A DNA stretch of 57,391 nt from a bacterium (GCA_021814835.1 JAKAHO010000001.1:2225-59615), one strand, 5' to 3'. Numbered from the stretch's first letter, positions 4,313 to 23,176 are shown. Translations and numbers: made by a program. Notes: a model not told the origin generated them from the sequence alone.

Positions 4313-5662
4313 ATGAATACTAATGAAAAGAGGTTCGCGGAGCTCGGTATAGCCCCCGGAATCCTCTCTGTAATCGAAAAATTGGGCTTTAAAGCGCCCA
4401 CCCCTATCCAAGGGCAGTCTATCCCTGTGGGTATCGAAGGAAAGGACGTAATGGGCATTGCTCAGACCGGCACAGGCAAAACGCTTGCGTTCGGCATTCC
4501 TATGATTCAGCGCGTGCTCTCAGGAGTAGGCCGCGGTCTTGTGATTGTGCCGACGCGCGAACTCGCGCTTCAGGTTGCGGAATCATTGCATGCGGTCGGA
4601 AGCCCTCTTGGCGTTAAATTTACCGTATTAATCGGCGGCGAACCGATGCAACGCCAGCTCCGCAGCTTGGCACGCAAACCCGACATCCTTATCTGCACGC
4701 CGGGAAGAATGATTGATCACCTCGACCAAAAAACAGTCTCACTCGAAAAAGTGCGCACGCTCGTCCTCGATGAAGCGGACAGGATGCTTGATATGGGTTT
4801 TGCGCCTCAGTTGAAACAGATTTTGCAGACAGTTCCCAAGGAACGCCAGACCATGCTTTTCTCGGCGACGATGCCTGATGAAATCGTGCACATTGCGCGC
4901 ACGTATATGCAGCTTCCGATTCGTGTTGAAATCGCGCGTCAGGGAAGTACCGCAAAGGACGTCACGCAAGAATTGTTCTTTGTGTCGCAGGAAGATAAAT
5001 CGCGTCTTTTGGAAAAGATTCTTCAGGATTATAAGGGTTCAGTGCTTGTCTTTTCGCGCACGAAACACAATGCAAAACGCATTGCGGCGACGGTTCGCTT
5101 CTTGGGCCACACTGCCACCGAGATTCACTCGAACCGCTCGCTCGGACAGCGCACAGAAGCGCTTGCGGGATTTAAGACAGGAAAATACCGCGTACTCGTG
5201 GCAACCGATATCGCGGCCCGTGGCATCGACGTAAACAATATTGAGCTCGTTATTAACTACGATCTTCCTGAAAATCCGGAAGATTATGTGCACCGCATCG
5301 GCAGAACCGGCCGCGCAGGTGCAAGCGGCCACGCAATCTCATTTGCGCGCTCAAACCAGCGCGATGACGTCCGCTCTATCGAGCGCCTCGTCCGCTCAAC
5401 GCTTCCGGTTTCAAAACTTCCAGAACTTCCGAGGCCGTTGCCGGGTGTAAAAACCGGAATTCCCGATGAACGTCCGGAACGTCGCCAGATGCGCCGCTTC
5501 CCGCATATGGATCGCAGTCAGAGCCGTACCCGTGTTAAAGTGGAGGGTTCGAGGAGTGCTGAGCTCCAGCAAAACGGCTACGCGCGAAGGCATGCAGAAG
5601 GCCCGAAGCGCACACCCCGTTTCCGCAGCCGCGGACCGCGCAGAGAAAGATTCGGACGATAA
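4313..5662 (+). CDS. DEAD-box ATP-dependent RNA helicase with Arg-rich C-terminal tail
   Basis: Motifs AQTGTGKT, PTRELA, DEAD, SAT and HRIGRTGRAG. Start moved to the second ATG (4313) because 4297-4302 TAGAAT looks like the -10 box; the ORF-track start is 4301. Confidence 0.9.
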   Translation: MNTNEKRFAELGIAPGILSVIEKLGFKAPTPIQGQSIPVGIEGKDVMGIAQTGTGKTLAFGIPMIQRVLSGVGRGLVIVPTRELALQVAESLHAVGSPLGVKFTVLIGGEPMQRQLRSLARKPDILICTPGRMIDHLDQKTVSLEKVRTLVLDEADRMLDMGFAPQLKQILQTVPKERQTMLFSATMPDEIVHIARTYMQLPIRVEIARQGSTAKDVTQELFFVSQEDKSRLLEKILQDYKGSVLVFSRTKHNAKRIAATVRFLGHTATEIHSNRSLGQRTEALAGFKTGKYRVLVATDIAARGIDVNNIELVINYDLPENPEDYVHRIGRTGRAGASGHAISFARSNQRDDVRSIERLVRSTLPVSKLPELPRPLPGVKTGIPDERPERRQMRRFPHMDRSQSRTRVKVEGSRSAELQQNGYARRHAEGPKRTPRFRSRGPRRERFGR

Positions 5663-5669
5663 CAAGATT

Positions 5670-5699
5670 CCCCGCCTATCTGATAGGCGGGGAATTTTA
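5670..5699 (+). terminator. rho-independent terminator
   Basis: CCCCGCCTA/TAGGCGGGG stem followed by AATTTT. Confidence 0.75.
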
Positions 5700-5791
5700 A
5701 ATTCATAATTTTCAATTTTCAAACACCGACAATCAAGAAGTATCCGCCTCTTATTCCGTCATTGGAAATTGAAAATTTGTCATTCAAGATT

Positions 5792-5817
5792 TCAGCCCTT
5801 CCGGCAGGAAGGGCTGA
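5792..5817. terminator. terminator-like hairpin 7 nt past the ABC-F stop codon
   Basis: TCAGCCCTTCC/GGAAGGGCTGA stem. The U-tract is weak on both strands. Confidence 0.5.
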
Positions 5818-5823
5818 ACACTT

Positions 5824-7275
5824 TTATTCTTTTGCGAGGTCGAACGTTTCGTCGATGCGTATCTGGCTCACGAACTCGGGGACGTGGCTTACAAGCACCA
5901 TCGCGCCGTCATACTTATTGAGCGCCGCCGCGATTACAGGGAGATGGCGGAAATTCATATGGTTCGTCGGCTCGTCCAAGATAAGGAGTCCAGGGCGGAG
6001 AAGCACCAATTGCGCCATCGCAACAAGTCCCTTCTGGCCTTCTGAGAGCGTACCGATTTTCTTTTTCATCACATTTTCGTCGATAAGGAAGCCCGCCGCA
6101 GTGGAGCGGAGCTCAAGTTCGGTAATTCTGTCCATAACTGACGCGAGTGCGTTGTAGACGGTATCTTCAAAGTTAAGCGTCGAAAAATCCTGACGGTAAT
6201 AGCCGACGCGGACGCCCTCCTGAATAGAAGAACCCTTCCCTCCGCGGGCGATAGACTCAAGCAATGTGCTCTTGCCGATGCCGTTGGGGCCCGAGAGTAA
6301 AAGGTGCGTATTCTTCTTTATCGCAATATTGGCTTTTTTATTGACGGGTTTATGATTCTTAAAAATCGTATATGAAGCAATTTTCAAAATATCGCCGATA
6401 AGTTCGGGCTGGGAGGGGATTACGAAAGGCCTGATGGTCTTATCTTCCTTGCGGACATCGACAATCTGTTCCTCCATTTCCTCAACCTTCTCCCTCATTT
6501 TCTTTGCAACAAGACGCATCTGTCCGCCTTTATGCGCGAAAAAGTTCGCCTTTTCCTTGTTCGCCTGAATTTCTTTTTCGAGAAGCGCGTTTTTGCGGTT
6601 TTCTTTCTCAATACGCAACGTAATATCGGCGACCACGTTCGTGTAGTTGCCGACGTACTGCTCAACTTTGCGCGTATGCAAATCGAGGTAGAGCACGCCC
6701 TGCGTAAACGCGTTCAAAAATTGCGCATCGTGTGAAATAACAATGAGCGTTTTCTTATATTCAACGAGGAATTTCGTAAGGTGCGCGATGCCTTCCTTGT
6801 CGAGGTTGTTTGTCGGCTCATCAAGAAGGAGCAAATCGGGCGCCTGAATAAGCGCGGACGCAAGAAGCAGGCGCGCCTGCTGGCCGCCAGAAAATGACTT
6901 TACAATCCTGTCGTGTGGCGCCGAGAGATTCACCACTTCAAGCACCTCATCAATGAGCGGATCGATATTGTAGACCTTCTTATCAAAACGCTTTTCAAAA
7001 AATTCACGGATAGTAAGTTCGAGCTCATCGCGGGGAATAACTTGGCGCGCGGTAGCAATAGTCATTCCGTTTGCAACGTGAACAGAACCCGATTCAGGAT
7101 GAATCGCTTTGGTAATAAGTTTAAAAATAGTGCTCTTGCCTGCACCGTTCTGACCCATAAGCGTCACCTTCCAACCCTTGCGCACGCCAAATGACACCTC
7201 ATCCAAAATGGGGTGATGGGGTCCGTACTCGTACGAAACCTTGTCAAAACGCAATATGACCTCGTCGTTTGCCAT
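5824..7275 (-). CDS. ABC-F family ATPase (two ABC cassettes, no TM domain)
   Basis: First cassette GQNGAGKST / LSGGQQARLLLA / LLLDEPTNNLD; second cassette GPNGIGKSTL / LSEGQKGLVAMA / LILDEPTNHM. Start trimmed to ATG 7275 (MANDEVILRFDKV..), because the 86-codon upstream extension overlaps the divergent gene. Confidence 0.9.
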   Translation of the reverse strand: MANDEVILRFDKVSYEYGPHHPILDEVSFGVRKGWKVTLMGQNGAGKSTIFKLITKAIHPESGSVHVANGMTIATARQVIPRDELELTIREFFEKRFDKKVYNIDPLIDEVLEVVNLSAPHDRIVKSFSGGQQARLLLASALIQAPDLLLLDEPTNNLDKEGIAHLTKFLVEYKKTLIVISHDAQFLNAFTQGVLYLDLHTRKVEQYVGNYTNVVADITLRIEKENRKNALLEKEIQANKEKANFFAHKGGQMRLVAKKMREKVEEMEEQIVDVRKEDKTIRPFVIPSQPELIGDILKIASYTIFKNHKPVNKKANIAIKKNTHLLLSGPNGIGKSTLLESIARGGKGSSIQEGVRVGYYRQDFSTLNFEDTVYNALASVMDRITELELRSTAAGFLIDENVMKKKIGTLSEGQKGLVAMAQLVLLRPGLLILDEPTNHMNFRHLPVIAAALNKYDGAMVLVSHVPEFVSQIRIDETFDLAKE

Positions 7276-7342
7276 AGTTTTTACTGGTGCTTCATTGTGC
7301 CAGATATTTGCCGTTTTGTCACTATTCCGTACAATGGTGGGT

Positions 7343-8611
7343 ATGCAGAAAAGGAAGGAGTGGGACGTTGCGGTAATAGGCGGGGGACCATCAGGTATGA
7401 TGGCGGCAGGCAGGGCGGCCGAACTGGGCGCCCGGGTAATTTTGCTTGAGAAAAATGCCGTCCTTGGCAAGAAGCTTTTAATATCAGGCGGAGGCAGGTG
7501 CAACTTTACGAATGCAGAATTCGACACGCGCACGCTCCTTTCGAAATTCAGAAAGGCGAGCGACTTCCTCCATTCACCGTTTTCTCAGTTCGGCGTGAAA
7601 GAAGCCATTGCATTTTTTGAGCAATACGGCAGTCCGCACAAAATTGAGGAGGGAAAACGCGCATTTCCTGCGAGCAATAAATCATCCTCAATCCGCGATG
7701 CGCTAGTTTCGTATATGAAGAAAGGGGGAGTCGCAATATCAACAGAAAGCGCTGTTAAAAGCATTACGCGCGACAAAACAAGCATAACCGGGCTCGAACT
7801 CGAAAACGGAGAAACAATACACGCACGCGCAATTGTTGTTGCAACGGGAGGATTATCGCGACCCGATACGGGCTCTACGGGAGACGGTTTCGCGTGGCTC
7901 TCGGACATCGGCCACACGATTGCGAAACCCGATCCGTCGCTTGTGCCAATTGCCATAACCGACGTCTGGGTAAAAGCGCTTCAGGGCGTGACCCTAAACG
8001 ACATAAAACTCTCCGTTATACAGAACGGCAAAAAACAACTTTCAAAGAAGGGGAGGATTCTTTTCACGCACTTTGGAGTAAGCGGTCCCACTATCATCAA
8101 TATGAGCAAGGACATCGGCGAGCTTCTTGGATACGGCCCCGTTGAAATTCTTCTTGATATCCAGCCGGCGCTCGACCACGGAATGTTGAACGAAAAACTG
8201 CAGGAAATCTTTAAAACGAACAGCAATAAGATATTTAAAAGCGTGGTCGGCGAGCTTGTTCCTGTGGCGGCGCTTGCGCCGATAGTTATGTCGCTATCCG
8301 AAATTCGTCCTGACACGTTTTGCCACAGCATTACGCGCGAAGAGCGTATGAAGCTTATTGCGACATTGAAAGCGTTGCCGATGCACGTGGAACACCTCTT
8401 GGGAAGCGACAAGGCAATTGTGACAAGCGGCGGCGTGCCGCTCACTGAAGTTGATACGCGCGCAATGCGTTCGTTGAAATACAACAATCTCTATCTTACG
8501 GGTGATATTTTGGATATCGACAGACCCTCGGGCGGCTTCAGTCTTCAGCTCTGTTGGACGAGCGGATATGTCGCGGGTACGCATGCTGCGGAACAAATAA
8601 AGAGAAAATAA
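7343..8611 (+). CDS. HI0933/BaiN/YhiN-family FAD-dependent oxidoreductase
   Basis: DVAVIGGGPSGMMAAGRAAELG dinucleotide-binding fold and LLISGGGRCNFTN family signature. Start trimmed to ATG 7343 (7334 also possible). Confidence 0.85.
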   Translation: MQKRKEWDVAVIGGGPSGMMAAGRAAELGARVILLEKNAVLGKKLLISGGGRCNFTNAEFDTRTLLSKFRKASDFLHSPFSQFGVKEAIAFFEQYGSPHKIEEGKRAFPASNKSSSIRDALVSYMKKGGVAISTESAVKSITRDKTSITGLELENGETIHARAIVVATGGLSRPDTGSTGDGFAWLSDIGHTIAKPDPSLVPIAITDVWVKALQGVTLNDIKLSVIQNGKKQLSKKGRILFTHFGVSGPTIINMSKDIGELLGYGPVEILLDIQPALDHGMLNEKLQEIFKTNSNKIFKSVVGELVPVAALAPIVMSLSEIRPDTFCHSITREERMKLIATLKALPMHVEHLLGSDKAIVTSGGVPLTEVDTRAMRSLKYNNLYLTGDILDIDRPSGGFSLQLCWTSGYVAGTHAAEQIKRK

Positions 8612-8640
8612 AAAACTCCCGCATTCGCGGGAATTTTTCT
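8612..8640. terminator. bidirectional rho-independent terminator
   Basis: TCCCGC/GCGGGA stem flanked by AAAAA and TTTTT. Confidence 0.75.
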
Positions 8641-8643
8641 TTA

Positions 8644-9282
8644 CTAGTTTATTTCAACAATCACATCTTCTTTTGCAAACCGCGATTTTGGTTCATTCGC
8701 ATGCGTATCCTCGGCTGATCTGAAGCCGAGCGCAACGCACACCACGGATTCAAGTCCGCGAGACTTAAAGTTCAAAATTTCATCGAACTTTGCGGAGTCA
8801 AAGCCCTCCATGGGACACGCATCAATCTTTTCTGCCGCAGCGGCGGTAAGTACAACGCCGAGCGCGATATATGCTTGATTACGCACCCACGCCTTCAAGG
8901 CATCGGAAGTTTTCATCTTCATAAAGCCCTTCATTGTTTTCTCATGAGCTCCGAGCTTCGCATCATCAATCGAAGGATTGTCCTTTTTCATTGATGCGAG
9001 ATGCGCGTCTACGAGCGACTCATCGGGAACGGAAGGAACAGTAATAACAATGAAATGGGAAGCATCCGTAACCTGCGTCTGGTTCCACGCGGCCGCTTTC
9101 AATTGCTCGCGCGTTGCGGGGTTATTCACCACCACAAATTTCCATGGCTGAATGCCGAATGAGGAAGGCGCAAGCCGCAATGCTTCAAGCATCGCATCAA
9201 TCTGTCCTTCTGAAAGTTTCTTTTGCGCATCAAACTTTTTGGTTGCATAGCGCCACTGCAACGCTTTTATAATAGTGTTCAT
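8644..9282 (-). CDS. NAD(P)H nitroreductase family protein
   Basis: RYATKKFD and APSSFGIQPWKFVVV motifs, about 210 aa. A TAGAAT -10 box sits 8 nt upstream of the ATG. Confidence 0.85.
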   Translation of the reverse strand: MNTIIKALQWRYATKKFDAQKKLSEGQIDAMLEALRLAPSSFGIQPWKFVVVNNPATREQLKAAAWNQTQVTDASHFIVITVPSVPDESLVDAHLASMKKDNPSIDDAKLGAHEKTMKGFMKMKTSDALKAWVRNQAYIALGVVLTAAAAEKIDACPMEGFDSAKFDEILNFKSRGLESVVCVALGFRSAEDTHANEPKSRFAKEDVIVEIN

Positions 9283-9319
9283 ACCCCATCATTCTACTCT
9301 TCACGACTCTTAGAAACAA

Positions 9320-9354
9320 TAAAAAAATCCGCATACTCTATTGAGTATGCGGAT
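9320..9354 (-). terminator. rho-independent terminator of the arginine kinase gene
   Basis: 12-bp stem ATCCGCATACTC/GAGTATGCGGAT followed by TTTTTTT on the minus strand. Confidence 0.8.
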
Positions 9355-9373
9355 GAGATTCAGATACGGAAGG

Positions 9374-10402
9374 CTAATCCTCGCACTTTTCCAGCATGAT
9401 GAGCGTGCCGACGCCGCGAATGAGCAGATTCACCGCATCCACCTCGGAGATGCCGAGGCGCTGCTTGTTCGAGATGTCATACACACTGCCCTTGCTGTCC
9501 GAGTGTTCGCCGTCGATGCCGCGAAGCGAGAGCTTCAGCTCGTTGCAGATGCGCTTCAGCTTCGCCTCGTTCTTGCCGAGCTTCGGCAGCTTCACGTGCA
9601 CGCTGGCGCGCATAGCAGTGCCGAGGTTCGTGGGGCAGCTCGAAAGGTATCCGAGGTGCTCCGTGTACGCGAACTGAAGCTGACGCTGAAGCATTTCGAT
9701 AGCGCGTGCAAGTCGCGAGAAAACCTCGCGGACGTTGCCACCTTCCTGCATCGAGATGATGCGGAGCTCGTCCTCTTCGTTCACCCAGACCAAGAAACGC
9801 TTGTCGGCGGAGTGGAAAATACCCCTGCTCTCAGGCCACTCGCGGTTTGCGCCGGCTGCCTCGAGGAAACGGTCTCCCTTCTTGAAGAGGAAGTGGTCAG
9901 CCACGAGCTGCTGCCTCGTTGCTTCGTCCATTCCGGCGAGCGGATAATACATACCCTTCAAATCGCCGTCGAACTTCGAAAGAGAGTCAACTACGCGGCG
10001 CTCTACTTCGCGCCTCTGCTCGGCGGAAATCGCCGGAGCAAAAGGAATGCCCTTCAAGTTGCGTCCGACGCGGATACGCGTTGAAACGACGAAGGATCCA
10101 TCAGGGTCGACGCTGTCGGCAACGAGTTTCGTTGCGTCGAGGTCGGCGCTGTGCGTGTCTTCCTTCTTGTATCCGCCGTGATACTCCTCGATGATGGGGT
10201 CGAAAAGGGGAGCAAACAGCACGTACGAGTGCTCGTCGCCGGCATACACGCCGACGCTCGAATCCTCGTTGACTAGCCCAGAGTTGATTGCCTGCGCGAG
10301 CGTAAACCCGCTCGGCGTCACAACTCCTGCGAGCTTCTTCTTCACCTCCTCCGTGAGGTGCTTCTTCATGAGCGACTGCTTCGTTGCTTCTTTGTGTGTC
10401 AT
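9374..10402 (-). CDS. Arginine kinase-type phosphagen (ATP:guanido) kinase, two-domain eukaryote-like form
   Basis: Alignable by eye along its whole length to arthropod arginine kinase: LFDPIIEEYHGG, DHFLFKKGDRFL, FLVWVNEEDELRIISMQEGG, CPTNLGTAMRASVHVKLPKL, GSVYDISNKQRLG. Start taken as ATG 10402, behind a GAGGAG SD; the ORF-track start 10414 is GTG. Confidence 0.9.
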   Translation of the reverse strand: MTHKEATKQSLMKKHLTEEVKKKLAGVVTPSGFTLAQAINSGLVNEDSSVGVYAGDEHSYVLFAPLFDPIIEEYHGGYKKEDTHSADLDATKLVADSVDPDGSFVVSTRIRVGRNLKGIPFAPAISAEQRREVERRVVDSLSKFDGDLKGMYYPLAGMDEATRQQLVADHFLFKKGDRFLEAAGANREWPESRGIFHSADKRFLVWVNEEDELRIISMQEGGNVREVFSRLARAIEMLQRQLQFAYTEHLGYLSSCPTNLGTAMRASVHVKLPKLGKNEAKLKRICNELKLSLRGIDGEHSDSKGSVYDISNKQRLGISEVDAVNLLIRGVGTLIMLEKCED

Positions 10403-10494
10403 GGTGATGTGCACTCCTCTTATTGGTTAAGGTACTGACGAAGAGCGTATCGTACCACGGAAAATATTACAATAGAGGCGGGTAAAACACAAGG

Positions 10495-11451
10495 TTATTG
10501 CGCCAAAAAATCCACAAGAACGCGCGAAAGTTTTTGGGCATCGTGGCGCACCACGTCGGACTGGCTCACGACGTCATAATGCAATATTTTTTTCGCGTAT
10601 GAGTGCAGTGTTTTTTCGTCAACGATAACAGGATACGCGCGTTCAAAGGCGTATTTTTGGACAAGTTCGCCGCGCAATTCAGACGCGTTGTATACCAAAG
10701 CATCGAGGACAGGAAGGCCCAAATAATGCAGTAATTGCCTCACAAAATCGGACGCTTTAAAATGGTTGGTCTCTCCCCATTTTGTCATAGCATTCACGAC
10801 CATCACGGTCTTCGCGCAGCTCCGCACAACCGAGTCGGAAAAACCTTTCACGAGCATATTGGGAATAATGGACGAGTAGAGGTCTCCGGGGCCGAACACT
10901 ATCAAATCAGCCTGCTCTAACGCCTCCGCCGCACGGGGGTTGATGCGCGCGTCCGGGGAAAGAAACACTCTTTTAATTTTAAGCGCGCCGTCGTGCTTCG
11001 GGATATCAATATTCGTTTCTCCCTTAATTACCTCGCCGTTCTCAAGTTCGGCGCACAGATGCGCGTTATCGGTCGAAACGGGGAGCACAACGCCATTAAT
11101 ACCCAGGAGCTTGCCCGCGCGTTCAATGGCGTCGACTTCATTGCCTGCAACATCGGTAAGCGCTTGAAGAAAAAGATTGCCAAAGCTATGCCCGCGCAAA
11201 GAGCTGTCGGATTTAAAACGATAATTAAAAAGATCGCGGAGCGTTGCGTCGCCCTCATCGGGCGCAAGCGCCACGAGGCACCGCCGTACGTCGCCCGCAG
11301 GAAGCGTGCCGAACTCGTCGCGGAGAATACCCGAACTTCCTCCGTTATCGAACGCAGTAACAATAGCAGTAAGGTGAACGGGATGGTGTTTAAGCCCCTT
11401 TAATACGTTAAACGTGCCCGAACCTCCTCCCACCACTACGACTTTTTTCAT
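10495..11451 (-). CDS. yvcK: YvcK/CofD-family (UPF0052) protein
   Basis: MKKVVVVGGGSGTFNVLKGLK, AIVTAFDNGGSSGILRDEFG and LPAGDVRRCLVALA motifs. Start at 11451; the in-frame ATG at 11478 (MNSVRGLDG-) is an alternative. Confidence 0.85.
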   Translation of the reverse strand: MKKVVVVGGGSGTFNVLKGLKHHPVHLTAIVTAFDNGGSSGILRDEFGTLPAGDVRRCLVALAPDEGDATLRDLFNYRFKSDSSLRGHSFGNLFLQALTDVAGNEVDAIERAGKLLGINGVVLPVSTDNAHLCAELENGEVIKGETNIDIPKHDGALKIKRVFLSPDARINPRAAEALEQADLIVFGPGDLYSSIIPNMLVKGFSDSVVRSCAKTVMVVNAMTKWGETNHFKASDFVRQLLHYLGLPVLDALVYNASELRGELVQKYAFERAYPVIVDEKTLHSYAKKILHYDVVSQSDVVRHDAQKLSRVLVDFLAQ

Positions 11452-11478
11452 CCCATCTAAACCTCTAACGGAGTTCAT
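11446..11478 (-). repeat. degenerate/solo copy of the hairpin-element boundary in the yvcK 5' end
   Basis: Minus strand reads ATGAAC-TCCGTTAGAGG-TTTAGAT-GGG-ATGAAA: a left arm with 1 mismatch, then GGGATGAAA, with only about 20 nt between. Confidence 0.6.
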
Positions 11479-11508
11479 ACCCATTGATTGTATCATTGCC
11501 CAAAATTG

Positions 11509-11517
11509 TGCTAGAAT
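11509..11517 (+). promoter_or_regulatory. extended -10 promoter TGcTAGAAT for the riboswitch-metK transcript
   Basis: The TGCTAGAAT string is the same as the 4294-4302 promoter. It lies about 15 nt upstream of the riboswitch P1 stem. Confidence 0.5.
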
Positions 11518-11532
11518 GCAACTACAACTGAA

Positions 11533-11683
11533 TACATATCCAGAGCGGTGGGGAGAGAATTGGCTCGATGATCCACCCAGCAACCCCTGACATACCTGTC
11601 AGGAAGGTGCTCCATCCAACCCCGCACGGGGGAAGATAAAGGTCGACACGCTTCCTCACGAATTCCGGAGGAGCTCTTTTTTT
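11533..11683 (+). promoter_or_regulatory. SAM-I (S-box) riboswitch with terminator expression platform
   Basis: UAUCCAGAGCGGUGGGGAGA..GGCUCGAUGAUCCACCCAGCAACC, a P3 hairpin CCUGACA/UGUCAGG, GGUGCUCCAUCC, a P4 hairpin CCCCG/CGGGG, and closing GAUAA. A UUCCUC/GAGGAG hairpin plus U-run follows at 11652-11683. The element lies directly upstream of metK. Confidence 0.8.
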
Positions 11684-11707
11684 GTATTCAGTTGCAATAA
11701 AAAATCT

Positions 11708-12652
11708 ATGAACAACACAAAAACATGCGAGTTTGTCTCGCCGCAACACCCCGACAAGATATGCGACTTCATTGCGGACTCTCTGCTTGATGCATTTATG
11801 AAGAAGGACCAGAAATCGCGGGTCGCAATAGAGGTAATGGGCGGACACAAGCAGATAGTCGTGTCAGGAGAAGTAACAAGCAAGGCAAACATCGATATTC
11901 GCGCGATAACGCAGCAAATAGTCGGTGCAGATTTTCAGATACGTTCGATTGTTGAAAAACAAAGCCCCTTTATTGCGAAGGGTGTTGATACGGGCGGCGC
12001 AGGAGACCAAGGTATTATGATTGGGTATGCAACAAATGAAACTAATGTGCTTTTGCCGCGGGAATATGTGCTCGCACGCGACCTTTGCAAAACCATCTTT
12101 ACACAGTATCCGTATGACGGAAAAACACAGGTAACGCTTGAAAACGGAAATGTCCGCACGGTGGTCGCGAGTTTTCAAAATACAAAGTCGAACGACCTGT
12201 TAAAACTTGTAAAAAATAATATTACTGCGGATGAATATATTATTAATCCAGCAGGCGAGTGGGAGCTTGGCGGATTTGATGCGGATACGGGCATTTCAGG
12301 AAGAAAGATTGTGATAGACAACTATGGACCCGAAATCGGCATCGGCGGCGGATCATTTTCGGGAAAAGACTACACAAAAGTTGACCGAAGCGGAGCATAC
12401 GCTGCGCGCAAGCTTGCAGTTCTACTCCTCAAAAAACACAACGCAAACGCCGTACGCGTAAAACTTGCCTATGCCATCGGAAAAAAGGAACCAGTGATGG
12501 CGGTGGCGGAAATTGATGGGAAAGAAATAACAATAGGCGCAGAATACGACCTTTCACCGAAGGGAATATATGCAATGCTGAATCTCGGAAAGGTAAAATG
12601 GGCCGATACCTCCCGCTGGGGGCACTTCGGTAGAAACTTCTCCTGGCAATAA
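11708..12652 (+). CDS. metK: S-adenosylmethionine synthetase, short form (314 aa)
   Basis: HPDKICDFIADSLLDA, GAGDQGIMIGYA and GGGSFSGKDYTKVDRSGAY motifs. A SAM riboswitch lies upstream. Confidence 0.85.
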   Translation: MNNTKTCEFVSPQHPDKICDFIADSLLDAFMKKDQKSRVAIEVMGGHKQIVVSGEVTSKANIDIRAITQQIVGADFQIRSIVEKQSPFIAKGVDTGGAGDQGIMIGYATNETNVLLPREYVLARDLCKTIFTQYPYDGKTQVTLENGNVRTVVASFQNTKSNDLLKLVKNNITADEYIINPAGEWELGGFDADTGISGRKIVIDNYGPEIGIGGGSFSGKDYTKVDRSGAYAARKLAVLLLKKHNANAVRVKLAYAIGKKEPVMAVAEIDGKEITIGAEYDLSPKGIYAMLNLGKVKWADTSRWGHFGRNFSWQ

Positions 12653-12654
12653 TC

Positions 12655-12688
12655 ATAAAAAAATCCCGCCTGTAAACATACAGGCGGG
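12655..12688 (-). terminator. rho-independent terminator (minus-strand U-run)
   Basis: CCCGCCTGT/ACAGGCGGG stem, followed on the minus strand by TTTTTTT. Confidence 0.7.
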
Positions 12689-12708
12689 CTTACGCCGAAA
12701 CCCCATTA

Positions 12709-13155
12709 CTATTCCACATACTTAATGACGGGAATCCGCTCACCGTTGGACCGCTCCTCGATGCAGACCTCGGCAACGAGCTCGCGGTCACGCTTGCCGC
12801 GCAACACGCAAACAAGTTGATTAGTCGGAAAACCGAGCCGCGACACCGTCTTGTAGTCGATGGTCACGGAGTTGCGGTAGCGGCACATCACCATGCGAAT
12901 CGCGCGAATAAAAAGTTTCATATCTTTATTGCAACGCACGCAGCGCGAGGGCAGATTCAATCCCTTCTTCGCATAAATGTATTGCATTATCGGAGAAAAC
13001 ACGATTGATGAACCGCAGACAATGCACCGTCTCACCTCAAGGGGGTGCTGGGACATGCACCTCTTGCACAGCGGATGAACCTTTCCCCTTCGTTTCTTGT
13101 GGACTCTTATCAAGTGTCCGCACAACCTTGCAGCAACACGTCTCGTCTCGCGCAA
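12709..13155 (-). CDS. hypothetical Cys-rich (3x CxxC) protein
   Basis: CKRC..CIVC..CVRC motifs. An AGGAGG SD lies 7 nt before the in-frame TTG at 13155; the ORF-track start is TTG 13173. Last gene of the mgtA-led minus-strand string. Confidence 0.5.
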   Translation of the reverse strand: MRETRRVAARLCGHLIRVHKKRRGKVHPLCKRCMSQHPLEVRRCIVCGSSIVFSPIMQYIYAKKGLNLPSRCVRCNKDMKLFIRAIRMVMCRYRNSVTIDYKTVSRLGFPTNQLVCVLRGKRDRELVAEVCIEERSNGERIPVIKYVE

Positions 13156-13178: not shown

Positions 13179-13439
13179 TTAGTTGTTGTACAACTCTCCG
13201 TTCGCTTTGTTTGTGAGAATATCAAGAACAAGCAAATCAAATTGCCTGCAATCGAAAGGAACGAAGACGCGCCAATACTGATCGCAATTCAAACACACGA
13301 TAAGGTATGCCGTGTGGGAATGCGAGGTGCAATTGAACATCTGAATCAACGCATGCGCGACATAGTTTCCATTTACGCACTCACACGTCATGTCGACATG
13401 CGTCAGCTTCCATAGTCTAATCGAATCATGCAATCCCAT
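13179..13439 (-). CDS. small Cys-rich protein, paralog 1 (CxC..CxxC)
   Basis: LTHVDMTCECVNGNY..YLIVCLNCDQYW. Own SD (GGGGG, 7 nt spacing). Clear homology to the next ORF. Confidence 0.6.
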   Translation of the reverse strand: MGLHDSIRLWKLTHVDMTCECVNGNYVAHALIQMFNCTSHSHTAYLIVCLNCDQYWRVFVPFDCRQFDLLVLDILTNKANGELYNN

Positions 13440-13471
13440 GTACCAACCCCCGTTCCTGAGTCAATCGCGCA

Positions 13472-13723
13472 TTAATGAAAATACGTTTCATTCTTTTCGT
13501 GATACAAAATCTCAATCATGAATTCTTCGCATTCAGTGAATGGAATTTCATACCACATCCACGAATGGCACCTTTGGCATGAAATGAGATATGTAACCTC
13601 ATCGCTCATTGTTCCGTCGAGTTTCTGAATGGCGACGTGAAGGCAAAAATCTCCATTTACGCATTCGCAATCCATATCCAAATACGTCAATAAAAAACGG
13701 CGGGTGCTCTTCTTGTCGAGCAT
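13472..13723 (-). CDS. small Cys-rich protein, paralog 2 (CxC..CxxC)
   Basis: LTYLDMDCECVNGDF..YLISCQRCHSWMW. SD AAGAGG, 7 nt spacing. Confidence 0.6.
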   Translation of the reverse strand: MLDKKSTRRFLLTYLDMDCECVNGDFCLHVAIQKLDGTMSDEVTYLISCQRCHSWMWYEIPFTECEEFMIEILYHEKNETYFH

Positions 13724-13752
13724 CGGTACGCCTCTTTTCCATCAACGGGCTT

Positions 13753-14013
13753 TCAGTGAATCCATTTTTCATTAGACGGATGGGCCAGCGCCGACTCGGC
13801 GAATCCGTCAAGCCTCGACTTAAGCTCGGTATTTTTTTCTCTCCAGTGTCCGCCGCACTGCATACAAATAAGAAGGCAGCTCGCGCACCTTCCGAATGCC
13901 TCGAAATAGAAAATAATATGAGTAGAAAGTCCGGAACCATCAGTCGAACATTGACACCGAACGGACACATACAGGGGCTTCAATACCGCTTCACGCCTCA
14001 AGAATGCGCCCAT
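13753..14013 (-). CDS. small Cys-rich protein, distant paralog 3 (CxC..CxxC..CxxC)
   Basis: VSVRCQCSTDGSG..CASCLLICMQCGGHW. SD AGGAG, 6 nt spacing. Confidence 0.55.
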   Translation of the reverse strand: MGAFLRREAVLKPLYVSVRCQCSTDGSGLSTHIIFYFEAFGRCASCLLICMQCGGHWREKNTELKSRLDGFAESALAHPSNEKWIH

Positions 14014-18592: not shown

Positions 18593-19279
18593 TCAGTACC
18601 AGTCGAGCCCCGCCCAGACGGCGGCAATCTGCGAGGTGTTCGCTCGGTGCTTGCCCCCGAAGTAACGCTGCTGGGAGTAGTCGGCATTCACCGTAAGGTG
18701 AAGGTTCTTGCCAAGCAGAACGGCGTAGCCGATGCCGGTGAGAAGATTGCCTCCGCCGTCATACTTCGCGTGGCTGCCGGAAACCACGTCCCGATGCGAA
18801 ACCCCGGAAAGACCGAGACCGTTGCGAAGGAAAAAGCCGTCTTTCCACGGGAAAAGCGTGGTGACGAGATTCACGTTCGTAACAATGAGCTCGGTCGGGT
18901 AGCACGCGGTATCCGAAAACGACCTGAACCCGGTTACGTCGAGTCCCAGGAGAATCCTGGACGTGAGCGTCTTCCCGACCTTGAAGTTCAGGTACCGAAG
19001 GGGGAAATCGCGGGAGGACGTACTGTTCCAACCGCGCATCTTCCCCGTCGAACCGTTCTCGGCGTATGTGCCGCTCCCTCCGCCGAGTCCGAAACCGATG
19101 TACCAGCTGTCGCGCTGGAACTCGGCCCTCTTGGAAGAGGGGATGGACGGAGGCGGCCCCGCGTCGTCGTACTCCGACGGGCGAGGATAGGTTGCGGGCG
19201 GAATGACTTGCGCCATCGCGGGCAACGCGAGACTGCAGAACAAAATGAACGCAAACAGCTTCGAAAGCATGTGTGCCAT
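18593..19279 (-). CDS. secreted beta-barrel (porin/OmpA-like outer-membrane-type) protein
   Basis: Signal peptide ..SLALPAMAQ, alternating hydrophobic beta-strand pattern, Gly-rich loops, and a C-terminal ..WAGLDWY aromatic terminus. GGAGGAGG SD. Visibly GC-richer than its neighbours. Confidence 0.65.
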   Translation of the reverse strand: MAHMLSKLFAFILFCSLALPAMAQVIPPATYPRPSEYDDAGPPPSIPSSKRAEFQRDSWYIGFGLGGGSGTYAENGSTGKMRGWNSTSSRDFPLRYLNFKVGKTLTSRILLGLDVTGFRSFSDTACYPTELIVTNVNLVTTLFPWKDGFFLRNGLGLSGVSHRDVVSGSHAKYDGGGNLLTGIGYAVLLGKNLHLTVNADYSQQRYFGGKHRANTSQIAAVWAGLDWY

Positions 19280-20359: not shown

Positions 20360-20581
20360 TCAGCCCCTCAACAATGTCGCGATATAGAGGGCTTCAACTT
20401 TTTCCCTTGCCCACAAAGTTTTCCGCAAAAAAGTGAGACTCGATTTAATGCTCGGGTTATTCGTGAAACACTTTATGGCGATGCGCGTTCCAAGTTCCTC
20501 CCAGCCGTATTGTTCCAATAAAAACTCAAGAATAGATTCGAGCGTCTTGCCGTGGAGCGGGTCGTTCGAGGGCGTAGCCAT
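20360..20581 (-). CDS. VF530/DUF2132-family small DNA-binding-like protein
   Basis: [53 protein letters not shown] matches my recollection of DUF2132. Confidence 0.7.
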
Positions 20582-20991
20582 TATACGAGGTCCGCTAAAT
20601 CCGGCTTGTGGTAATTGGGGCCTTTGAGTACTTTGCCGTCCTCGCGGTAAATCGGCTTTCCGTCCTCGCCGAGCTTGCTCATATTGGATTCGTGCACGCG
20701 CACGAACGCCTCATCAAGTTTCTCTAGGGGCTTCACCGATACCGAAGTGCCCGAGAGCACCACCTGCACGTCCGAGAGTTCTTTCAGCATATTTACGTAC
20801 AGCGCATGGGGGACGGGCGTGCCCGCTTCGAGGTGCGCAATCGCGGCATCAATATCCGCAAACAATTCTTTTGTTTCTTCATCGATAAGCGAGCGGCGCA
20901 ATTTCAACAATTTCACCGTCGGCTCAGCATTCACCTCAACGCCGAATGCGTCGTGGAATTCTTTAATATAATCCTCCCGCGTCTTCTTCAT
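20581..20991 (-). CDS. MazG-like nucleotide pyrophosphohydrolase family protein
   Basis: All-alpha protein with [39 protein letters not shown]. Start trimmed to ATG 20991, which is 7 nt after a TGaTATACT box. Confidence 0.65.
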
Positions 20992-20998
20992 GTGTCTC

Positions 20999-21007
20999 AG
21001 TATATCA
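20999..21007 (-). promoter_or_regulatory. extended -10 promoter TGaTATACT, leaderless geometry
   Basis: 7 nt between the -10 box and ATG 20991. Confidence 0.5.
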
Positions 21008-21030
21008 AAAAATCCGCCAAAGGGCGGATT
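21005..21030 (-). terminator. rho-independent terminator
   Basis: AATCCGCC/GGCGGATT stem followed by TTTTTT on the minus strand. Confidence 0.7.
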
Positions 21031-21034
21031 TTGG

Positions 21035-21304
21035 TTATTCCTTTTCCTTGCCCCAGCTCCAGCGGGGCTTTTCGCCTTTCCAATAGGCGAGCGCGAGTAA
21101 AAGCAACGCAAGTACAAACGTCTGCGGAATGACATTAAGGAGAGTGTCGCTCGCCGAGTGCGAATCTCCATCAATTCTATTGGCATTCAAGGCCACCAGC
21201 ACCACAAACACCGCAACGGAAAACCACCCCTGCCACGTTATGGGAGTCCAGCCCCATCCATACCTCTTCCTCTTAAACCAAAGTTTTTTAGGCGTGTCGG
21301 TCAT
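21035..21304 (-). CDS. small 2-TM membrane protein
   Basis: Trp-rich N-terminus (KRYGWGWTPITWQGW) and two hydrophobic helices. Confidence 0.55.
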   Translation of the reverse strand: MTDTPKKLWFKRKRYGWGWTPITWQGWFSVAVFVVLVALNANRIDGDSHSASDTLLNVIPQTFVLALLLLALAYWKGEKPRWSWGKEKE

Positions 21305-21344
21305 TACTTCTATTTTACATCATTGGAAAAAAATCAGCGCATTT

Positions 21345-21378
21345 TAAATAAAACAACACCCACTACATTGTAGTGGGT
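21345..21378 (-). terminator. rho-independent terminator
   Basis: ACCCACTACA/TGTAGTGGGT stem followed by a T-rich run on the minus strand. Confidence 0.7.
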
Positions 21379-21417
21379 TTAATCGGCTCCTTTCCTTGGT
21401 AGGTTGCGAGTGAGCGA

Positions 21418-21768
21418 CTAGCGGCCCCCGATGATGATGCGGTTCATCTCCCGCTCGATCTCCTTGCGCGGGAGGTTGCCGTGGCGCGCCGAGTCGATGA
21501 TGTGCGTCTCGATCATCGCCATGTAGCCGACGGCGGTGGGCGGGTCGAGCAGGAAGTCCGCGAACCACTCCTCGCACAGCTCGGTCTCGGACCCCTCGTC
21601 CATCAGGCACCGCTCGTCCTTCGGGAGCTGCTCCAGGGCGTTCCTCGCCTCGTGCCGCCGCGCCAGCTTCCGGAGGTACTTCACGAAGTCGACCTCGTTG
21701 GAAACGGCGAGCTTGAGGAACTGCAGACCGACGCGAACCTCCAACACGTACTCGGCACGCTTGCTCAT
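21418..21768 (-). CDS. hypothetical protein (GC-rich orphan 1)
   Basis: 116 aa with no recognisable domain. GGAAAGG SD and a consensus TTGACA-16-TATAAT promoter upstream. Confidence 0.55.
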   Translation of the reverse strand: MSKRAEYVLEVRVGLQFLKLAVSNEVDFVKYLRKLARRHEARNALEQLPKDERCLMDEGSETELCEEWFADFLLDPPTAVGYMAMIETHIIDSARHGNLPRKEIEREMNRIIIGGR

Positions 21769-21822
21769 AACTACCTTTCCGGGGCTTTGCCCCTATTCGG
21801 TTGTAAAGCTCAATACGAAAAC

Positions 21823-21850
21823 ATTATAGCACAACATTCATATTTGTCAA
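21823..21850 (-). promoter_or_regulatory. consensus sigma70 promoter TTGACA-16-TGcTATAAT
   Basis: The -35 box is at 21850..21845 and the -10 box at 21828..21823. Near-identical to the promoter at 22448-22475. Confidence 0.7.
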
Positions 21851-21920
21851 TACTCCATAAATAAAAGACCGCATCAGACGAACTTCCGAACGGGGTCGGA
21901 ATCGTTTCTGATGCGGGTTG

Positions 21921-22391
21921 CTATGATGGGAGCTGACTCAGGTCGAGCATGTCGCTGGCAATCTTCGTCCAGTTCATGTCTCGCACCTCGTCGCAGGTCG
22001 CGCCGCGAATCCCATCAAGCATGTCCTGCAGGTACTGCTGGTCGGAACAGCGCGCGCCGTGAAACATCTCGTGAAGCCACAGACCCTCTTCGAGTTTGCC
22101 GCCGCCCATCCCGCCAGTCACGACATTTTCTTCATTGCCGGTAACGAGGTAGACCAGGCGGCCGCCGCCCTTGTTGCTGCTCCACGCAAGCTTGTCGAGA
22201 CGAACGAGCAAATCGTAAATCCTCGACTTCGGGCCGACCAGATTCCACGGAACCGTGAGAAAAATCTGTCCGCCCCAGTCACCTTCGAAAACCAGCCAGC
22301 ATGGACCGTTTCCGAGTTCTGCCTTGCACTGATCGAGAAGACCCTTCAGACCCAACTCGTGAAAATGGGGGACGGTTTCCTGAACTTGCAT
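21921..22391 (-). CDS. hypothetical protein (GC-rich orphan 2)
   Basis: 156 aa. Start trimmed to ATG 22391 (MQVQETVPHF..), behind a GAGAGG SD. No recognisable domain. Confidence 0.55.
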   Translation of the reverse strand: MQVQETVPHFHELGLKGLLDQCKAELGNGPCWLVFEGDWGGQIFLTVPWNLVGPKSRIYDLLVRLDKLAWSSNKGGGRLVYLVTGNEENVVTGGMGGGKLEEGLWLHEMFHGARCSDQQYLQDMLDGIRGATCDEVRDMNWTKIASDMLDLSQLPS

Positions 22392-22447
22392 TTGAATGCC
22401 TCTCTGGGGCAACGCCCCCATTGAATTTTTAAAGCAAATCTAAAAAC

Positions 22448-22475
22448 ATTATAGCACAATATTAAAATTTGTCAA
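22448..22475 (-). promoter_or_regulatory. consensus sigma70 promoter TTGACA-16-TGcTATAAT
   Basis: The -35 box is at 22475..22470 and the -10 box at 22453..22448. Confidence 0.7.
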
Positions 22476-22551
22476 TCATTGGATTCAAAGCAATGTCAGC
22501 AACGAAACAACCCTGGATTTCCCGCCCTTTTTGTTGTTAAATGAAGGACAT

Positions 22552-22570
22552 TGGGGGATCGTCTAATGGT
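22552..22570 (+). repeat. tRNA-Gln 5' fragment (acceptor 5' strand to D-loop), 19/19 identical to 22638-22656
   Basis: TGGGGGATCGTCTAATGGT. Confidence 0.9.
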
Positions 22571-22637
22571 TGCGCTGCGCTTGTCACCGCACTGCGTTCG
22601 GAACCATAATTCATAAGCACGCATTTGTGCACATTGC

Positions 22638-22708
22638 TGGGGGATCGTCTAATGGTAGGACAGCGGCCTTTGAAGCCGTGAATCGGGGTTCGAATCCCTG
22701 TCCCCCAG
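22638..22708 (+). tRNA. tRNA-Gln (anticodon UUG)
   Basis: Hand-folded cloverleaf: acceptor TGGGGGA/TCCCCCA, D arm GTC..GAC, anticodon stem GCGGC/GCCGT with loop CTTTGAA, T arm CGGGG-TTCGAAT-CCCTG, discriminator G. CCA is not encoded. Confidence 0.9.
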
Positions 22709-22756
22709 CAATGTGCGGAAATGCTTATGAATTCTGTTCCCTCACTTCGTTAGCGA

Positions 22757-22811
22757 TAGGACAGCGGCCTTTGAAGCCGTGAATCGGGGTTCGAATCCCT
22801 GTCCCCCAGCA
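22757..22811 (+). repeat. tRNA-Gln 3' fragment (D-loop to 3' end), 55/55 identical to 22656-22710
   Basis: TAGGACAGCGGCCTTTGAAGCCGTGAATCGGGGTTCGAATCCCTGTCCCCCAGCA. Confidence 0.9.
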
Positions 22812-22824
22812 TCGCCAAAACAAA

Positions 22825-22847
22825 GCACCCCTTGCGGGTGTATTTTG
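22825..22847 (+). terminator. rho-independent terminator
   Basis: CACCC/GGGTG stem followed by TATTTT. Confidence 0.55.
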
Positions 22848-22909
22848 ACAACCGCAATTCTCCGTGGCATTTTGATTTTAGCTCCAATCGTATCTGACGG
22901 AGGTGGCAC

Positions 22910-23143: not shown

Positions 23144-23150
23144 AAAACTC

Positions 23151-23176
23151 AAAGCCCCGAAATTCGGGGCTTTTTG
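23151..23176 (+). terminator. rho-independent terminator
   Basis: AGCCCCGA/TCGGGGCT stem followed by TTTTT. Confidence 0.8.

What the first reader, a model, noticed from the sequence alone, without database searches (positions are those of the whole stretch)
9374..10402. Metazoan-type arginine kinase in a CPR-like genome
The 342-aa product has both the N-terminal alpha-helical domain and the catalytic domain of phosphagen kinases. It carries near-canonical arginine-kinase blocks: LFDPIIEEYHGG, DHFLFKKGDRFL, VWVNEEDELRIISMQEGG, CPTNLGTAMRASVHVKLPKL, VYDISNKQRLG. By eye it aligns end to end with arthropod arginine kinase and is not the McsB type.

Bacterial two-domain arginine kinases are rare and usually explained by horizontal transfer from eukaryotes.

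The gene is visibly GC-richer than its neighbours; the ORF track shows long spurious antisense ORFs across it. It has its own SD, TG-extended -10 box and strong terminator.

A phosphagen energy buffer in an organism expected to be a metabolically minimal (epi)symbiont is unexpected. It may hint at a eukaryote-associated lifestyle.
Basis: partly seen in the sequence, partly recalled or inferred. Interest (0 to 1): 0.62.

Follow-up and report, generated by a model that had tools for sequence, protein, structure and literature searches.

The report
Arginine kinase native to CPR bacteria
The gene is an intact arginine kinase (an enzyme that stores ATP energy as phosphoarginine) in a tiny "candidate phyla radiation" (CPR) bacterium from mine drainage; it is not a fresh import from animals but belongs to a so far undescribed CPR-specific branch of bacterial arginine kinases that has sat at the same chromosomal spot for a long time.

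Summary
Window 9374-10402 (minus strand) encodes a 342-aa phosphagen kinase with both Pfam domains. It aligns without gaps to Limulus arginine kinase (AK; 51% identity), keeps every catalytic and arginine-binding residue, has the AK-type specificity loop, and gives an AK-like predicted fold (TM about 0.9). It is not McsB. The host is a Parcubacteria/Paceibacteria-type CPR genome from mine-drainage metagenomes.

- **Not a chimera:** four independent assemblies show the same gene order, and depth is even across both borders.
- **Not metazoan-derived or isolated:** at least 590 prokaryote species genomes hold a matching stretch (the best 80 are all full length). In a neighbour-joining (NJ) tree the gene falls in a CPR-dominated clade (bootstrap 100), apart from the Proteobacteria/Campylobacterota clade and outside the arthropod AKs.
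- **Long residence:** the AK / HI0933-flavoprotein / ABC-F arrangement recurs in relatives down to 65% AK identity. dN/dS is 0.09-0.15.
- **GC excess is real but not recent import:** GC3 is 0.77 against 0.58. The excess is codon-specific and recurs in the syntenic orthologues.
- **No eukaryote link was found.**

Most likely it is a working ATP/phosphoarginine buffer. Nothing on AKs in CPR turned up in the searchable literature.

The parts
9374..10402 (-). Arginine kinase (phosphagen kinase) CDS, 342 aa. N-terminal helical domain at residues 8-72, catalytic domain at 132-339, reactive Cys256 in CPTNLGT.
10414..10421 (-). Shine-Dalgarno AAGAGGAG, 11 nt upstream of the ATG. A purine-rich AGGAG-type element also lies before the ATG in L005 and L006.
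10448..10455 (-). GTACGATA block in the CofD-AK spacer, conserved in all three syntenic genomes. Function unknown; possibly a promoter or regulatory element.
10464..10471 (-). Conserved in L005 (TATTAT) but not in L006. Not called by the promoter scan.
9327..9354 (-). Intrinsic terminator: 12-bp stem (6 G-C pairs), 4-nt loop, followed by TTTTTTT. It starts 20 nt after the AK stop codon.
10495..11496 (-). Upstream co-directional CofD/YvcK-family gene (PF01933). Syntenic with the AK in L005 and L006. No terminator-like site was found on this strand between it and the AK.
8644..9282 (-). Downstream nitroreductase-family gene (PF00881). Syntenic in L005, L006 and L090.
7334..8611 (+). HI0933-like flavoprotein. 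Its position next to the AK is conserved in relatives down to 65% AK identity. All its named relatives are CPR.
5824..7275 (-). ABC-F ATPase, part of the conserved AK / HI0933 / ABC-F block.

Best explanation
The gene encodes a catalytically competent ATP:L-arginine N-phosphotransferase (arginine kinase, EC 2.7.3.3).

Mechanism, inferred from the solved homologues: the N-terminal helical domain carries the specificity loop (D47-S48-S49-V50...Y53), which holds the amino-acid end of L-arginine. The catalytic domain binds MgATP through R111, R214, R265, R294 and R315. E210 and E299 position the guanidinium, with C256 beside them. The D47-R178 pair and the 294-305 loop close over the substrates. 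The reaction is reversible, so phosphoarginine accumulates when ATP is plentiful and regenerates ATP from ADP when supply drops.

The gene is a long-standing resident of a Parcubacteria/Paceibacteria-type CPR lineage. It belongs to a CPR-dominated clade of bacterial AKs, lies in a conserved AK / HI0933-flavoprotein / ABC-F neighbourhood, and is under purifying selection. Its codon bias is most simply read as selection for efficient translation.

Its most likely role is a temporal ATP buffer in a small cell with limited energy metabolism. That cell probably has to import its arginine; this step is inferred.

How the clade first arose is not resolved. It could be an ancient bacterial gene or an ancient exchange with eukaryotes.
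For: Shown:
- Both Pfam domains score far above their cut-offs.
- E about 1e-112 to solved AKs.
- Ungapped alignment to Limulus AK, with D62, S63, V65, Y68, R126, R193, E225, R229, C271, R280, H284, R309, E314, D324 and R330 all conserved.
- AK-type deletion in the specificity (GS) region relative to creatine kinase.
- Predicted structure with pLDDT 88 and TM 0.87-0.92 to AK crystal structures.
- Same gene order in 4 independent assemblies, even depth in 4 runs, no joints.
- Graded CPR relatives at 88, 81, 76, 74 and 67%, named Jorgensenbacteria, Paceibacterota, Brennerbacteria and Pacebacteria.
- CPR-dominated clade with bootstrap 100, separate from the Proteobacteria/Campylobacterota clade (bootstrap 94).
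- Synteny: CofD-AK-nitroreductase-HI0933 in L006, MetK-CofD-AK-nitroreductase in L005, and AK-HI0933-ABC-F in L089 and L093.
- AK and neighbour identities fall together: 81/85, 76/58 and 66/54%.
- dN/dS 0.09-0.15.
- Minor-strain SNPs: 5 synonymous plus K143R.
- AK GC3 matches the host in other bacteria, from 0.12 to 0.80.
- Codon-specific bias (AAG 0.92 vs 0.38, ATC 0.75 vs 0.33, but GCG 0.19 vs 0.49) that recurs in orthologues.

Inferred: arginine as the substrate, from residues and loop length, and from the literature report that AKs of Proteobacteria are active (PMC11492440, PMC6429109). The buffer role and high expression are also inferred.
Against: - No enzymatic or expression data. The metatranscriptomes of the same study contain nothing from this organism.
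- G64 of the Limulus specificity loop is Ser here. Ser is also found in the active Anthopleura domain 2 and across the CPR clade.
- No arginine transport or arginine metabolism gene was identified in the 57-kb window.
- The codon-bias argument lacks a reference set of highly expressed genes; there are no ribosomal protein genes in the window.
- The AK is absent next to the flavoprotein in three other Paceibacteria-type relatives. The distribution is therefore patchy, and transfer within CPR cannot be excluded.
- Deep tree nodes are weak (bootstrap 36-44), and the tree is NJ only.
- One member of the clade is labelled Bacteriovoracaceae (L068).
Confidence: 0.75

Rival explanations
1. Recent horizontal transfer of a metazoan or other eukaryotic arginine kinase into this CPR genome. 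This would reflect a eukaryote-associated lifestyle, and is the first reader's reading.
For: 52-60% identity to eukaryotic AKs with an ungapped alignment. GC3 is higher than in the neighbours. In the NJ tree the bacterial AKs lie among eukaryotic groups, with weak support.
Against: The closest relatives are CPR AKs at 62-88% identity, and arthropods reach only 52%. The CPR clade has bootstrap 100. Synteny holds down to 65% identity. The GC3 excess is shared by orthologues in genomes with different background GC, and it is codon-specific. The habitat is mine drainage.
Confidence: 0.03
2. Assembly or binning artefact: a eukaryotic or foreign AK fragment joined to a CPR contig.
For: A compositional outlier within the window.
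Against: Four independent assemblies give the same junctions. One contig spans the nitroreductase/AK border. Depth is even across both borders, and there are no joints or loose ends at the gene in 4 runs. Distinct relatives share the same neighbours.
Confidence: 0.01
3. The enzyme is real, but its patchy presence in CPR comes mainly from repeated gene transfer among CPR lineages, and to or from other bacteria, rather than from vertical descent with loss.
For: Only 6 of the best 80 species-genome loci are CPR. Three flavoprotein relatives at 61-64% identity have no AK at the locus. P0040 and P0089 have unrelated contexts. A Bacteriovoracaceae-labelled MAG sits in the clade. The AK is more conserved than its neighbours in some pairs, for example 76% against 58%.
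Against: The AK/HI0933/ABC-F adjacency is found on two major branches of the clade. The identity ranks of the AK and its neighbours agree. Outside this lineage the AK's GC3 matches that of its host.
Confidence: 0.2
4. The protein has the AK fold but a different physiological function. It might act on another guanidino compound, have a stress or developmental signalling role as reported for Myxococcus, or phosphorylate protein arginine as McsB does.
For: In Myxococcus the AK homologue is needed for fruiting bodies and spores (PMC11492440). Several nearby genes have Pfam families often linked to redox chemistry: nitroreductase, HI0933 flavoprotein, PNPOx-like and DoxX here, and MsrA/MsrB beside P0005. 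There is a G64S change in the specificity loop.
Against: All arginine-binding and catalytic residues and the AK loop length are conserved. McsB models score far below cut-off and the McsB-specific C-terminal domain is absent. No mcsA, clpC or ctsR lies nearby. A stress role would still work through phosphoarginine.
Confidence: 0.1
5. Pseudo-enzyme or decaying gene.
For: None found.
Against: Intact ORF, all catalytic residues present, dN/dS 0.09-0.15, and a confident AK-like model.
Confidence: 0.01

Closest known systems
Bacterial arginine kinases of Proteobacteria/Campylobacterota (Sulfurovum, Moritella sp. PE36, Desulfotalea, Myxococcus; Andrews 2008, Suzuki 2013, Fraga 2019, as cited in PMC6429109 and PMC11492440)
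   Same: Single-module, about 340-aa, two-domain phosphagen kinase. Same catalytic residues, the same CPTNLGTAMRASVH block and the same AK-type specificity loop. 55-61% identity to the query.
   Different: The query lies in a separate, CPR-dominated clade (bootstrap 100) that is only weakly (44) sister to the Proteobacteria/Campylobacterota clade. Its host phylum is not covered by the published distribution, which is limited to Proteobacteria.
Limulus polyphemus and Litopenaeus vannamei arginine kinases (1BG0/1RL9, 4BHL)
   Same: Ungapped alignment over 333 residues. Every catalytic and substrate residue is shared. TM 0.91.
   Different: Only 51-52% identity. The query lacks the first ~15 residues, has G64S, and lies outside the arthropod clade in the tree.
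Anthopleura japonicus two-domain arginine kinase (4RF6) and choanoflagellate (Salpingoeca) AK
   Same: These are the closest eukaryotic sequences in the comparison set: 55% and 60% identity. Anthopleura domain 2 has the same DSS loop variant.
   Different: The eukaryotic proteins are tandem duplications. Anthopleura has a 3-residue insertion in the flexible loop. The query is a single module.
McsB protein-arginine kinase
   Same: Homologous catalytic domain (PF00217). E about 1e-24 to solved McsB structures.
   Different: McsB has no PF02807 N-terminal domain. The NCBIfam McsB models score 77-156 bits against cut-offs of 381-679. No mcsA, ctsR or clpC lies nearby.

Membership tests
Phosphagen (ATP:guanidino) kinase family | N-terminal alpha-helical domain (PF02807) | tested here: met
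   98 bits against a cut-off of 25.7, residues 8-72. The model shows helices at 11-74.
Phosphagen (ATP:guanidino) kinase family | C-terminal catalytic domain (PF00217) with the signature C-P-[ST]-N-[ILV]-G-T, which holds the reactive cysteine | tested here: met
   252 bits against a cut-off of 22.4. CPTNLGT at residues 256-262.
Phosphagen (ATP:guanidino) kinase family | Nucleotide-binding arginines and catalytic glutamates (Limulus R126, R229, R280, R309, R330; E225, E314) | tested here: met
   All conserved at query positions 111, 214, 265, 294, 315, 210 and 299.
Phosphagen (ATP:guanidino) kinase family | Two-domain phosphagen kinase fold | tested here: met
   AlphaFold model with pLDDT 88.1 and pTM 0.87. 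TM 0.87-0.92 to AK and CK structures.
Arginine kinase (EC 2.7.3.3) subgroup | AK-type specificity (GS) loop: deletion relative to creatine kinase, D62/S63/Y68 contacts, and the D62-R193 pair | tested here: met
   Loop length is identical to Limulus and Litopenaeus, and CK has 4 extra residues in the alignment. D47, S48, Y53 and R178 are present. G64 is replaced by Ser, as in Anthopleura domain 2.
Arginine kinase (EC 2.7.3.3) subgroup | Reversible phosphorylation of free L-arginine | not testable with these tools
   Needs an enzyme assay. Inferred from the residues and from literature reports of active AKs in Proteobacteria (PMC11492440).
   The query lies in the CPR-dominated clade (bootstrap 100). 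Arthropod AKs branch outside the group that holds the bacterial, cnidarian and choanoflagellate sequences. Identity is 52% to arthropods against 62-88% to CPR.
Proteobacterial/Campylobacterota AK clade (includes Moritella and Sulfurovum, Suzuki's cluster A bacteria) | Placement inside that clade | tested here: not met
   It is a separate clade. The sister relation has only 44% bootstrap support. Mean identity between the clades is 57.6%, against 66-68% within each.
McsB protein-arginine kinase | Score at or above the NCBIfam equivalog cut-off | tested here: not met
   155.5 against 385, 138.7 against 500, 112.7 against 471, 94.9 against 381, and 76.6 against 679.
McsB protein-arginine kinase | No phosphagen N-domain, and a genomic association with mcsA/ctsR/clpC | tested here: not met
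   The N-domain is present. None of these genes is within +/-10 kb.

The most novel reading that the evidence does not exclude
A lineage of Parcubacteria/Paceibacteria keeps a strongly expressed phosphoarginine system as a core adaptation. It would bank ATP, and perhaps scavenged arginine or phosphate, between periods of supply. This would be the first phosphagen energy buffer recognised in CPR bacteria. The deep, well-supported CPR clade beside the Proteobacteria clade would also mean that two-domain arginine kinases are old in Bacteria. That would reopen the question of whether eukaryotic AKs came from bacteria rather than the reverse.
Probability: 0.2. Interest if true: 0.65.

Novelty: new member of a known kind. 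Interest (0 to 1): 0.4.

Why it matters

This locus adds three things:
- Such kinases also form a distinct, selectively maintained clade in CPR bacteria.
- The gene has been stable in its chromosomal neighbourhood for a long time.
- Several hundred prokaryote species genomes hold a matching stretch.

For CPR biology, it gives a concrete and testable handle on how ultra-small cells with reduced metabolism might smooth their ATP supply. For phosphagen-kinase evolution, it adds a new deep bacterial branch that should be included in any test of the direction of transfer. The enzyme family itself and its chemistry are well known.

Tried and rejected
1. Expression evidence. The three metatranscriptomes of the same study hold only short fragments of a conserved helicase motif from other organisms. 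This is uninformative rather than negative.
2. Strain comparison as a selection test. L002 has an AK identical at the nucleotide level, but all of its 1.4% divergence lies in window 4.5-7 kb. I dropped it as evidence.
3. Promoter. The sigma-70 scan found no site upstream of the AK, and hits in the region are at the shuffle level.
4. Organism names for unlabelled members of the clade. The cluster look-ups returned none. The basal subgroup (P0061, P0077 and others; context) therefore remains unassigned.
5. Literature on AKs in CPR, Patescibacteria or Parcubacteria: 0 papers. PMC3347173 (Myxococcus AK) is not held.
6. Uniform GC shift as the cause of the high GC3. Rejected, because G at four-fold sites is not enriched and GCG is depleted.
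7. No maximum-likelihood tree program was available. The tree is NJ on Kimura distances with 200 bootstraps, and its deep nodes are not reliable.
8. The window extends beyond the end of the 116.8-kb NCBI contig that carries the same protein, and differs from it by 3 bases in 20.4 kb. The window therefore comes from another assembly of the same population.

Full report
**Observation**

Window 9374..10402 (minus strand) is an open reading frame of 342 codons from its ATG; an in-frame GTG lies four codons upstream.

It matches Pfam PF02807 (N-terminal phosphagen kinase domain, 98 bits, cut-off 25.7) and PF00217 (catalytic domain, 252 bits, cut-off 22.4). The five NCBIfam models for the protein-arginine kinase McsB match only the catalytic part, and score 77-156 bits against cut-offs of 381-679. 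Against solved structures, the best matches are arginine kinases (AKs) with E about 1e-112 per module. Creatine, lombricine and glycocyamine kinases follow, and McsB is far behind at 1e-24.

**Is the enzyme intact, and is it arginine-specific?**

- Query residues 8-340 align with Limulus AK residues 23-355 without a single gap, with 170 of 333 residues identical.
- In Limulus numbering (query + 15), these residues are all conserved: D62, S63, V65, Y68, R126, R193, E225, R229, C271, R280, H284, R309, E314, D324 and R330.
- The only change in the specificity loop is G64 to Ser. Ser is also found in the active Anthopleura domain 2 and across the CPR clade.
- Relative to creatine kinase, the guanidino-specificity region carries the AK-type deletion.
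- An AlphaFold model built on 20 homologues has mean pLDDT 88 and pTM 0.87. It superposes on AK crystal structures with TM 0.87-0.92.

These results exclude a pseudo-enzyme. L-arginine is by far the most likely substrate, but activity itself is inferred and not shown.

**Is the assembly sound, and what is the host?**

- The same protein with the same neighbours (CofD-family gene, AK, nitroreductase, HI0933-like flavoprotein, ABC-F) was assembled independently in one NCBI genome and three ENA assemblies. These are 98.6-100% identical to the window over the shared stretch.
- Four DNA runs hold 96-98% of the sampled words of the region. All four are labelled mine drainage metagenome.
- Contigs laid on window 7000-13000 show even depth across both gene borders. 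One contig spans the nitroreductase/AK junction. There are no joints or loose ends at the gene.
- All named relatives of the AK's closest homologues, and all named relatives of the neighbouring flavoprotein, are Jorgensenbacteria, Taylorbacteria, Sungbacteria, Paceibacterota/Pacebacteria, Parcubacteria group or Patescibacteria group.
- The window's gene content fits a CPR genome: MraY, FtsW, MurG, GltX, a type IV pilus cluster and many ORFs with no Pfam match.

The "CPR-like genome" is confirmed and a chimera is excluded.

**Where does the gene come from?**

In the large protein collection the query has a graded series of single-module relatives of about 340 aa, at 88, 81, 81, 76, 74, 69 and 67% identity and below. 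Several lie on contigs of 100-650 kb.

The best 80 are all full length. Six of them are CPR (63-81% identity). The rest are mostly Campylobacterota (Sulfurovum, Sulfurimonas, Arcobacter), Desulfuromusa, Moritella PE36, Nannocystis and others, at 55-61%.

Identity to eukaryotic AKs is 60% for the choanoflagellate Salpingoeca, 55% for both Anthopleura domains and 52% for arthropods.

I built a neighbour-joining tree (103 sequences, 324 columns, Kimura distances, 200 bootstraps, rooted on a creatine kinase):
- All CPR-labelled sequences fall in one clade of 38 with bootstrap 100. This clade also holds 29 unlabelled environmental sequences and one MAG labelled Bacteriovoracaceae.
- A separate clade of 35 Proteobacteria/Campylobacterota sequences has bootstrap 94.
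- The two clades are sisters with only 44% support.
- Anthopleura, then Salpingoeca plus marine eukaryote transcripts, and then the arthropods branch successively further out, with weak support of 36-63.
- Mean identity is 66% within the CPR clade, 58% to the Proteobacteria clade, 58% to the choanoflagellate and 52% to arthropods.

The gene is therefore not "metazoan-type" in origin. It belongs to a deep, distinct, CPR-dominated branch of bacterial AKs. The direction and age of any exchange between bacteria and eukaryotes cannot be resolved with this tree.

**Residence time**

- In L006 (Cand. Jorgensenbacteria) the order is CofD (85% identity), AK (81%), nitroreductase (63%), HI0933 (85%).
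- In L005 it is MetK (76%), CofD (68%), AK (81%), nitroreductase (54%).
- In the Jorgensenbacteria relative at 76% AK identity, the AK and the HI0933 gene are separated only by one inserted 1204-aa gene.
- In two further genomes, at 65-66% AK identity, the order is AK, HI0933, ABC-F.
- AK identity and flavoprotein identity fall together: 81/85, 76/58 and 66/54%.
- dN/dS against three syntenic orthologues is 0.09-0.15.
- A minor strain in the reads differs by five synonymous changes and one K-to-R change.

All this points to long vertical residence under purifying selection in this lineage.

The distribution is nevertheless patchy. Three flavoprotein relatives at 61-64% identity have no AK within 6 kb. 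Two CPR AKs at 64-67% identity sit in unrelated contexts. Loss, and some transfer among CPR lineages, remain possible.

**The GC excess**

That also explains the long antisense ORFs. It is unlikely to be a mark of recent import, for three reasons:
1. The AK has the highest GC3 of its locus in L005, L006, L085 and L089, whose background GC3 ranges from 0.37 to 0.63. The AK sits 0.14-0.24 above background in each.
2. Elsewhere the AK matches its host, with GC3 from 0.12 in Arcobacteraceae to 0.80 in Nannocystis.
3. The bias is codon-specific rather than a uniform shift. AAG is 0.92 against 0.38, ATC 0.75 against 0.33 and AAC 0.91 against 0.52. G at four-fold sites is not enriched, and GCG falls from 0.49 to 0.19. 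The preference for C- and G-ending two-fold codons recurs in six orthologues.

The simplest reading is selection on codon usage in a well-expressed gene. This could not be verified, because the window has no ribosomal protein genes for reference, and the study's RNA runs contain nothing from this organism.

**Expression signals**

- The SD AAGAGGAG lies 11 nt before the ATG.
- A 12-bp stem with a run of seven T follows the stop codon.
- Upstream, no sigma-70-type site was called, and the number of hits in the region equals the shuffle expectation.
A GTACGATA block is conserved in all three.
- No terminator-like site was found on the minus strand between the CofD-family gene and the AK, so the AK may be co-transcribed with it.

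**Mechanism and role**

By homology with the solved transition-state complexes, the N-domain loop binds the amino-acid end of arginine. The five arginines bind MgATP. E210 and E299 with C256 position the guanidinium, and the flexible loop closes over the site. The reversible reaction stores phosphoarginine when ATP is high and returns ATP when it falls.

In a small CPR cell with limited energy metabolism, the most plausible role is a temporal ATP buffer. A stress-related role, as reported for other bacteria, would work through the same chemistry. The source of arginine is unknown, since no arginine transport or metabolism gene was identified in the window. Nothing links the organism to a eukaryotic host.

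**Comparison with what is known, and novelty**

Reviews describe bacterial two-domain AKs in a few Proteobacteria (Desulfotalea, Myxococcus, Moritella, Sulfurovum) and a few others, with their origin debated (PMC6429109, PMC11492440). The latest survey cited there is titled as a skewed distribution within the Proteobacteria. Three full-text searches pairing arginine kinase with Patescibacteria, candidate phyla radiation or Parcubacteria found nothing. GenBank's automatic annotation already names some of these proteins "phosphagen kinase" or "arginine kinase".

The finding is a new member of a known kind. The enzyme is ordinary. The CPR-specific clade, its conserved locus and its codon bias are what is new. 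I score interest at 0.4.

Noticed in passing
window 11533-11642 (+): SAM riboswitch (Rfam RF00162, 55.6 bits, gathering score 44.4) directly upstream of metK (11708-12652, +). It is divergent from the CofD-AK gene pair.
   Followed up: no
window 13179-14013 (-), and 12709-12987 (-): Three tandem small ORFs (83-86 aa) that look like Cys-rich paralogues (shared C-x-C ... C-x-x-C pattern), plus a fourth small ORF. None has a Pfam match. They lie between metK and a P-type cation ATPase.
   Followed up: partly
window 55421-55936 (-): A 171-aa SET-domain protein (PF00856, 69.5 bits). This domain is best known from eukaryotic lysine methyltransferases.
   Followed up: no
window 20581-25345: A run of eight ORFs with no Pfam match around tRNA-Gln (22638-22709). 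Several have raised GC3 (0.69-0.74). It may be a lineage-specific island.
   Followed up: no
window 18593-19279 (-): A 228-aa ORF with no Pfam match that has the highest GC3 in the window (0.773), slightly above the AK.
   Followed up: no
window 4500-7000 compared with L002: All of the roughly 200 differences between the window and the ENA assembly L002 lie in this patch (DEAD-box helicase / ABC-F). The remaining 13 kb are identical. This looks like a recombined segment between strains.
   Followed up: partly
L068 6001-6960: An AK of the CPR-type clade on a 200-kb contig of a MAG labelled Bacteriovoracaceae. Its GC3 is not above that of its neighbours. It could be transfer between phyla or a labelling or binning problem.
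   Followed up: no
proteins P0043, P0063, P0067: AK homologues of 494-507 aa form a bootstrap-100 group at the base of the Proteobacteria/Campylobacterota clade. The extra ~150 residues were not examined.
   Followed up: no
window 25918-27051 and 27066-27710 (+): Two adjacent ORFs carry the N-terminal and C-terminal parts of an HlyD-type membrane-fusion protein. This may be a split or frameshifted gene, next to an MFS transporter and a MarR regulator.
   Followed up: no
L085 2985-6599: In the Jorgensenbacteria relative, a 1204-aa gene (PG_binding_1 + TIG domains) is inserted between the AK and the HI0933 flavoprotein. MsrA and MsrB lie upstream of the AK.
   Followed up: no
window 9412-10416, run X2: Contig word depth inside the AK (64-96) is somewhat higher than in the flanks (49-71) in one run. 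Related strains sharing the conserved gene would explain it.
   Followed up: no
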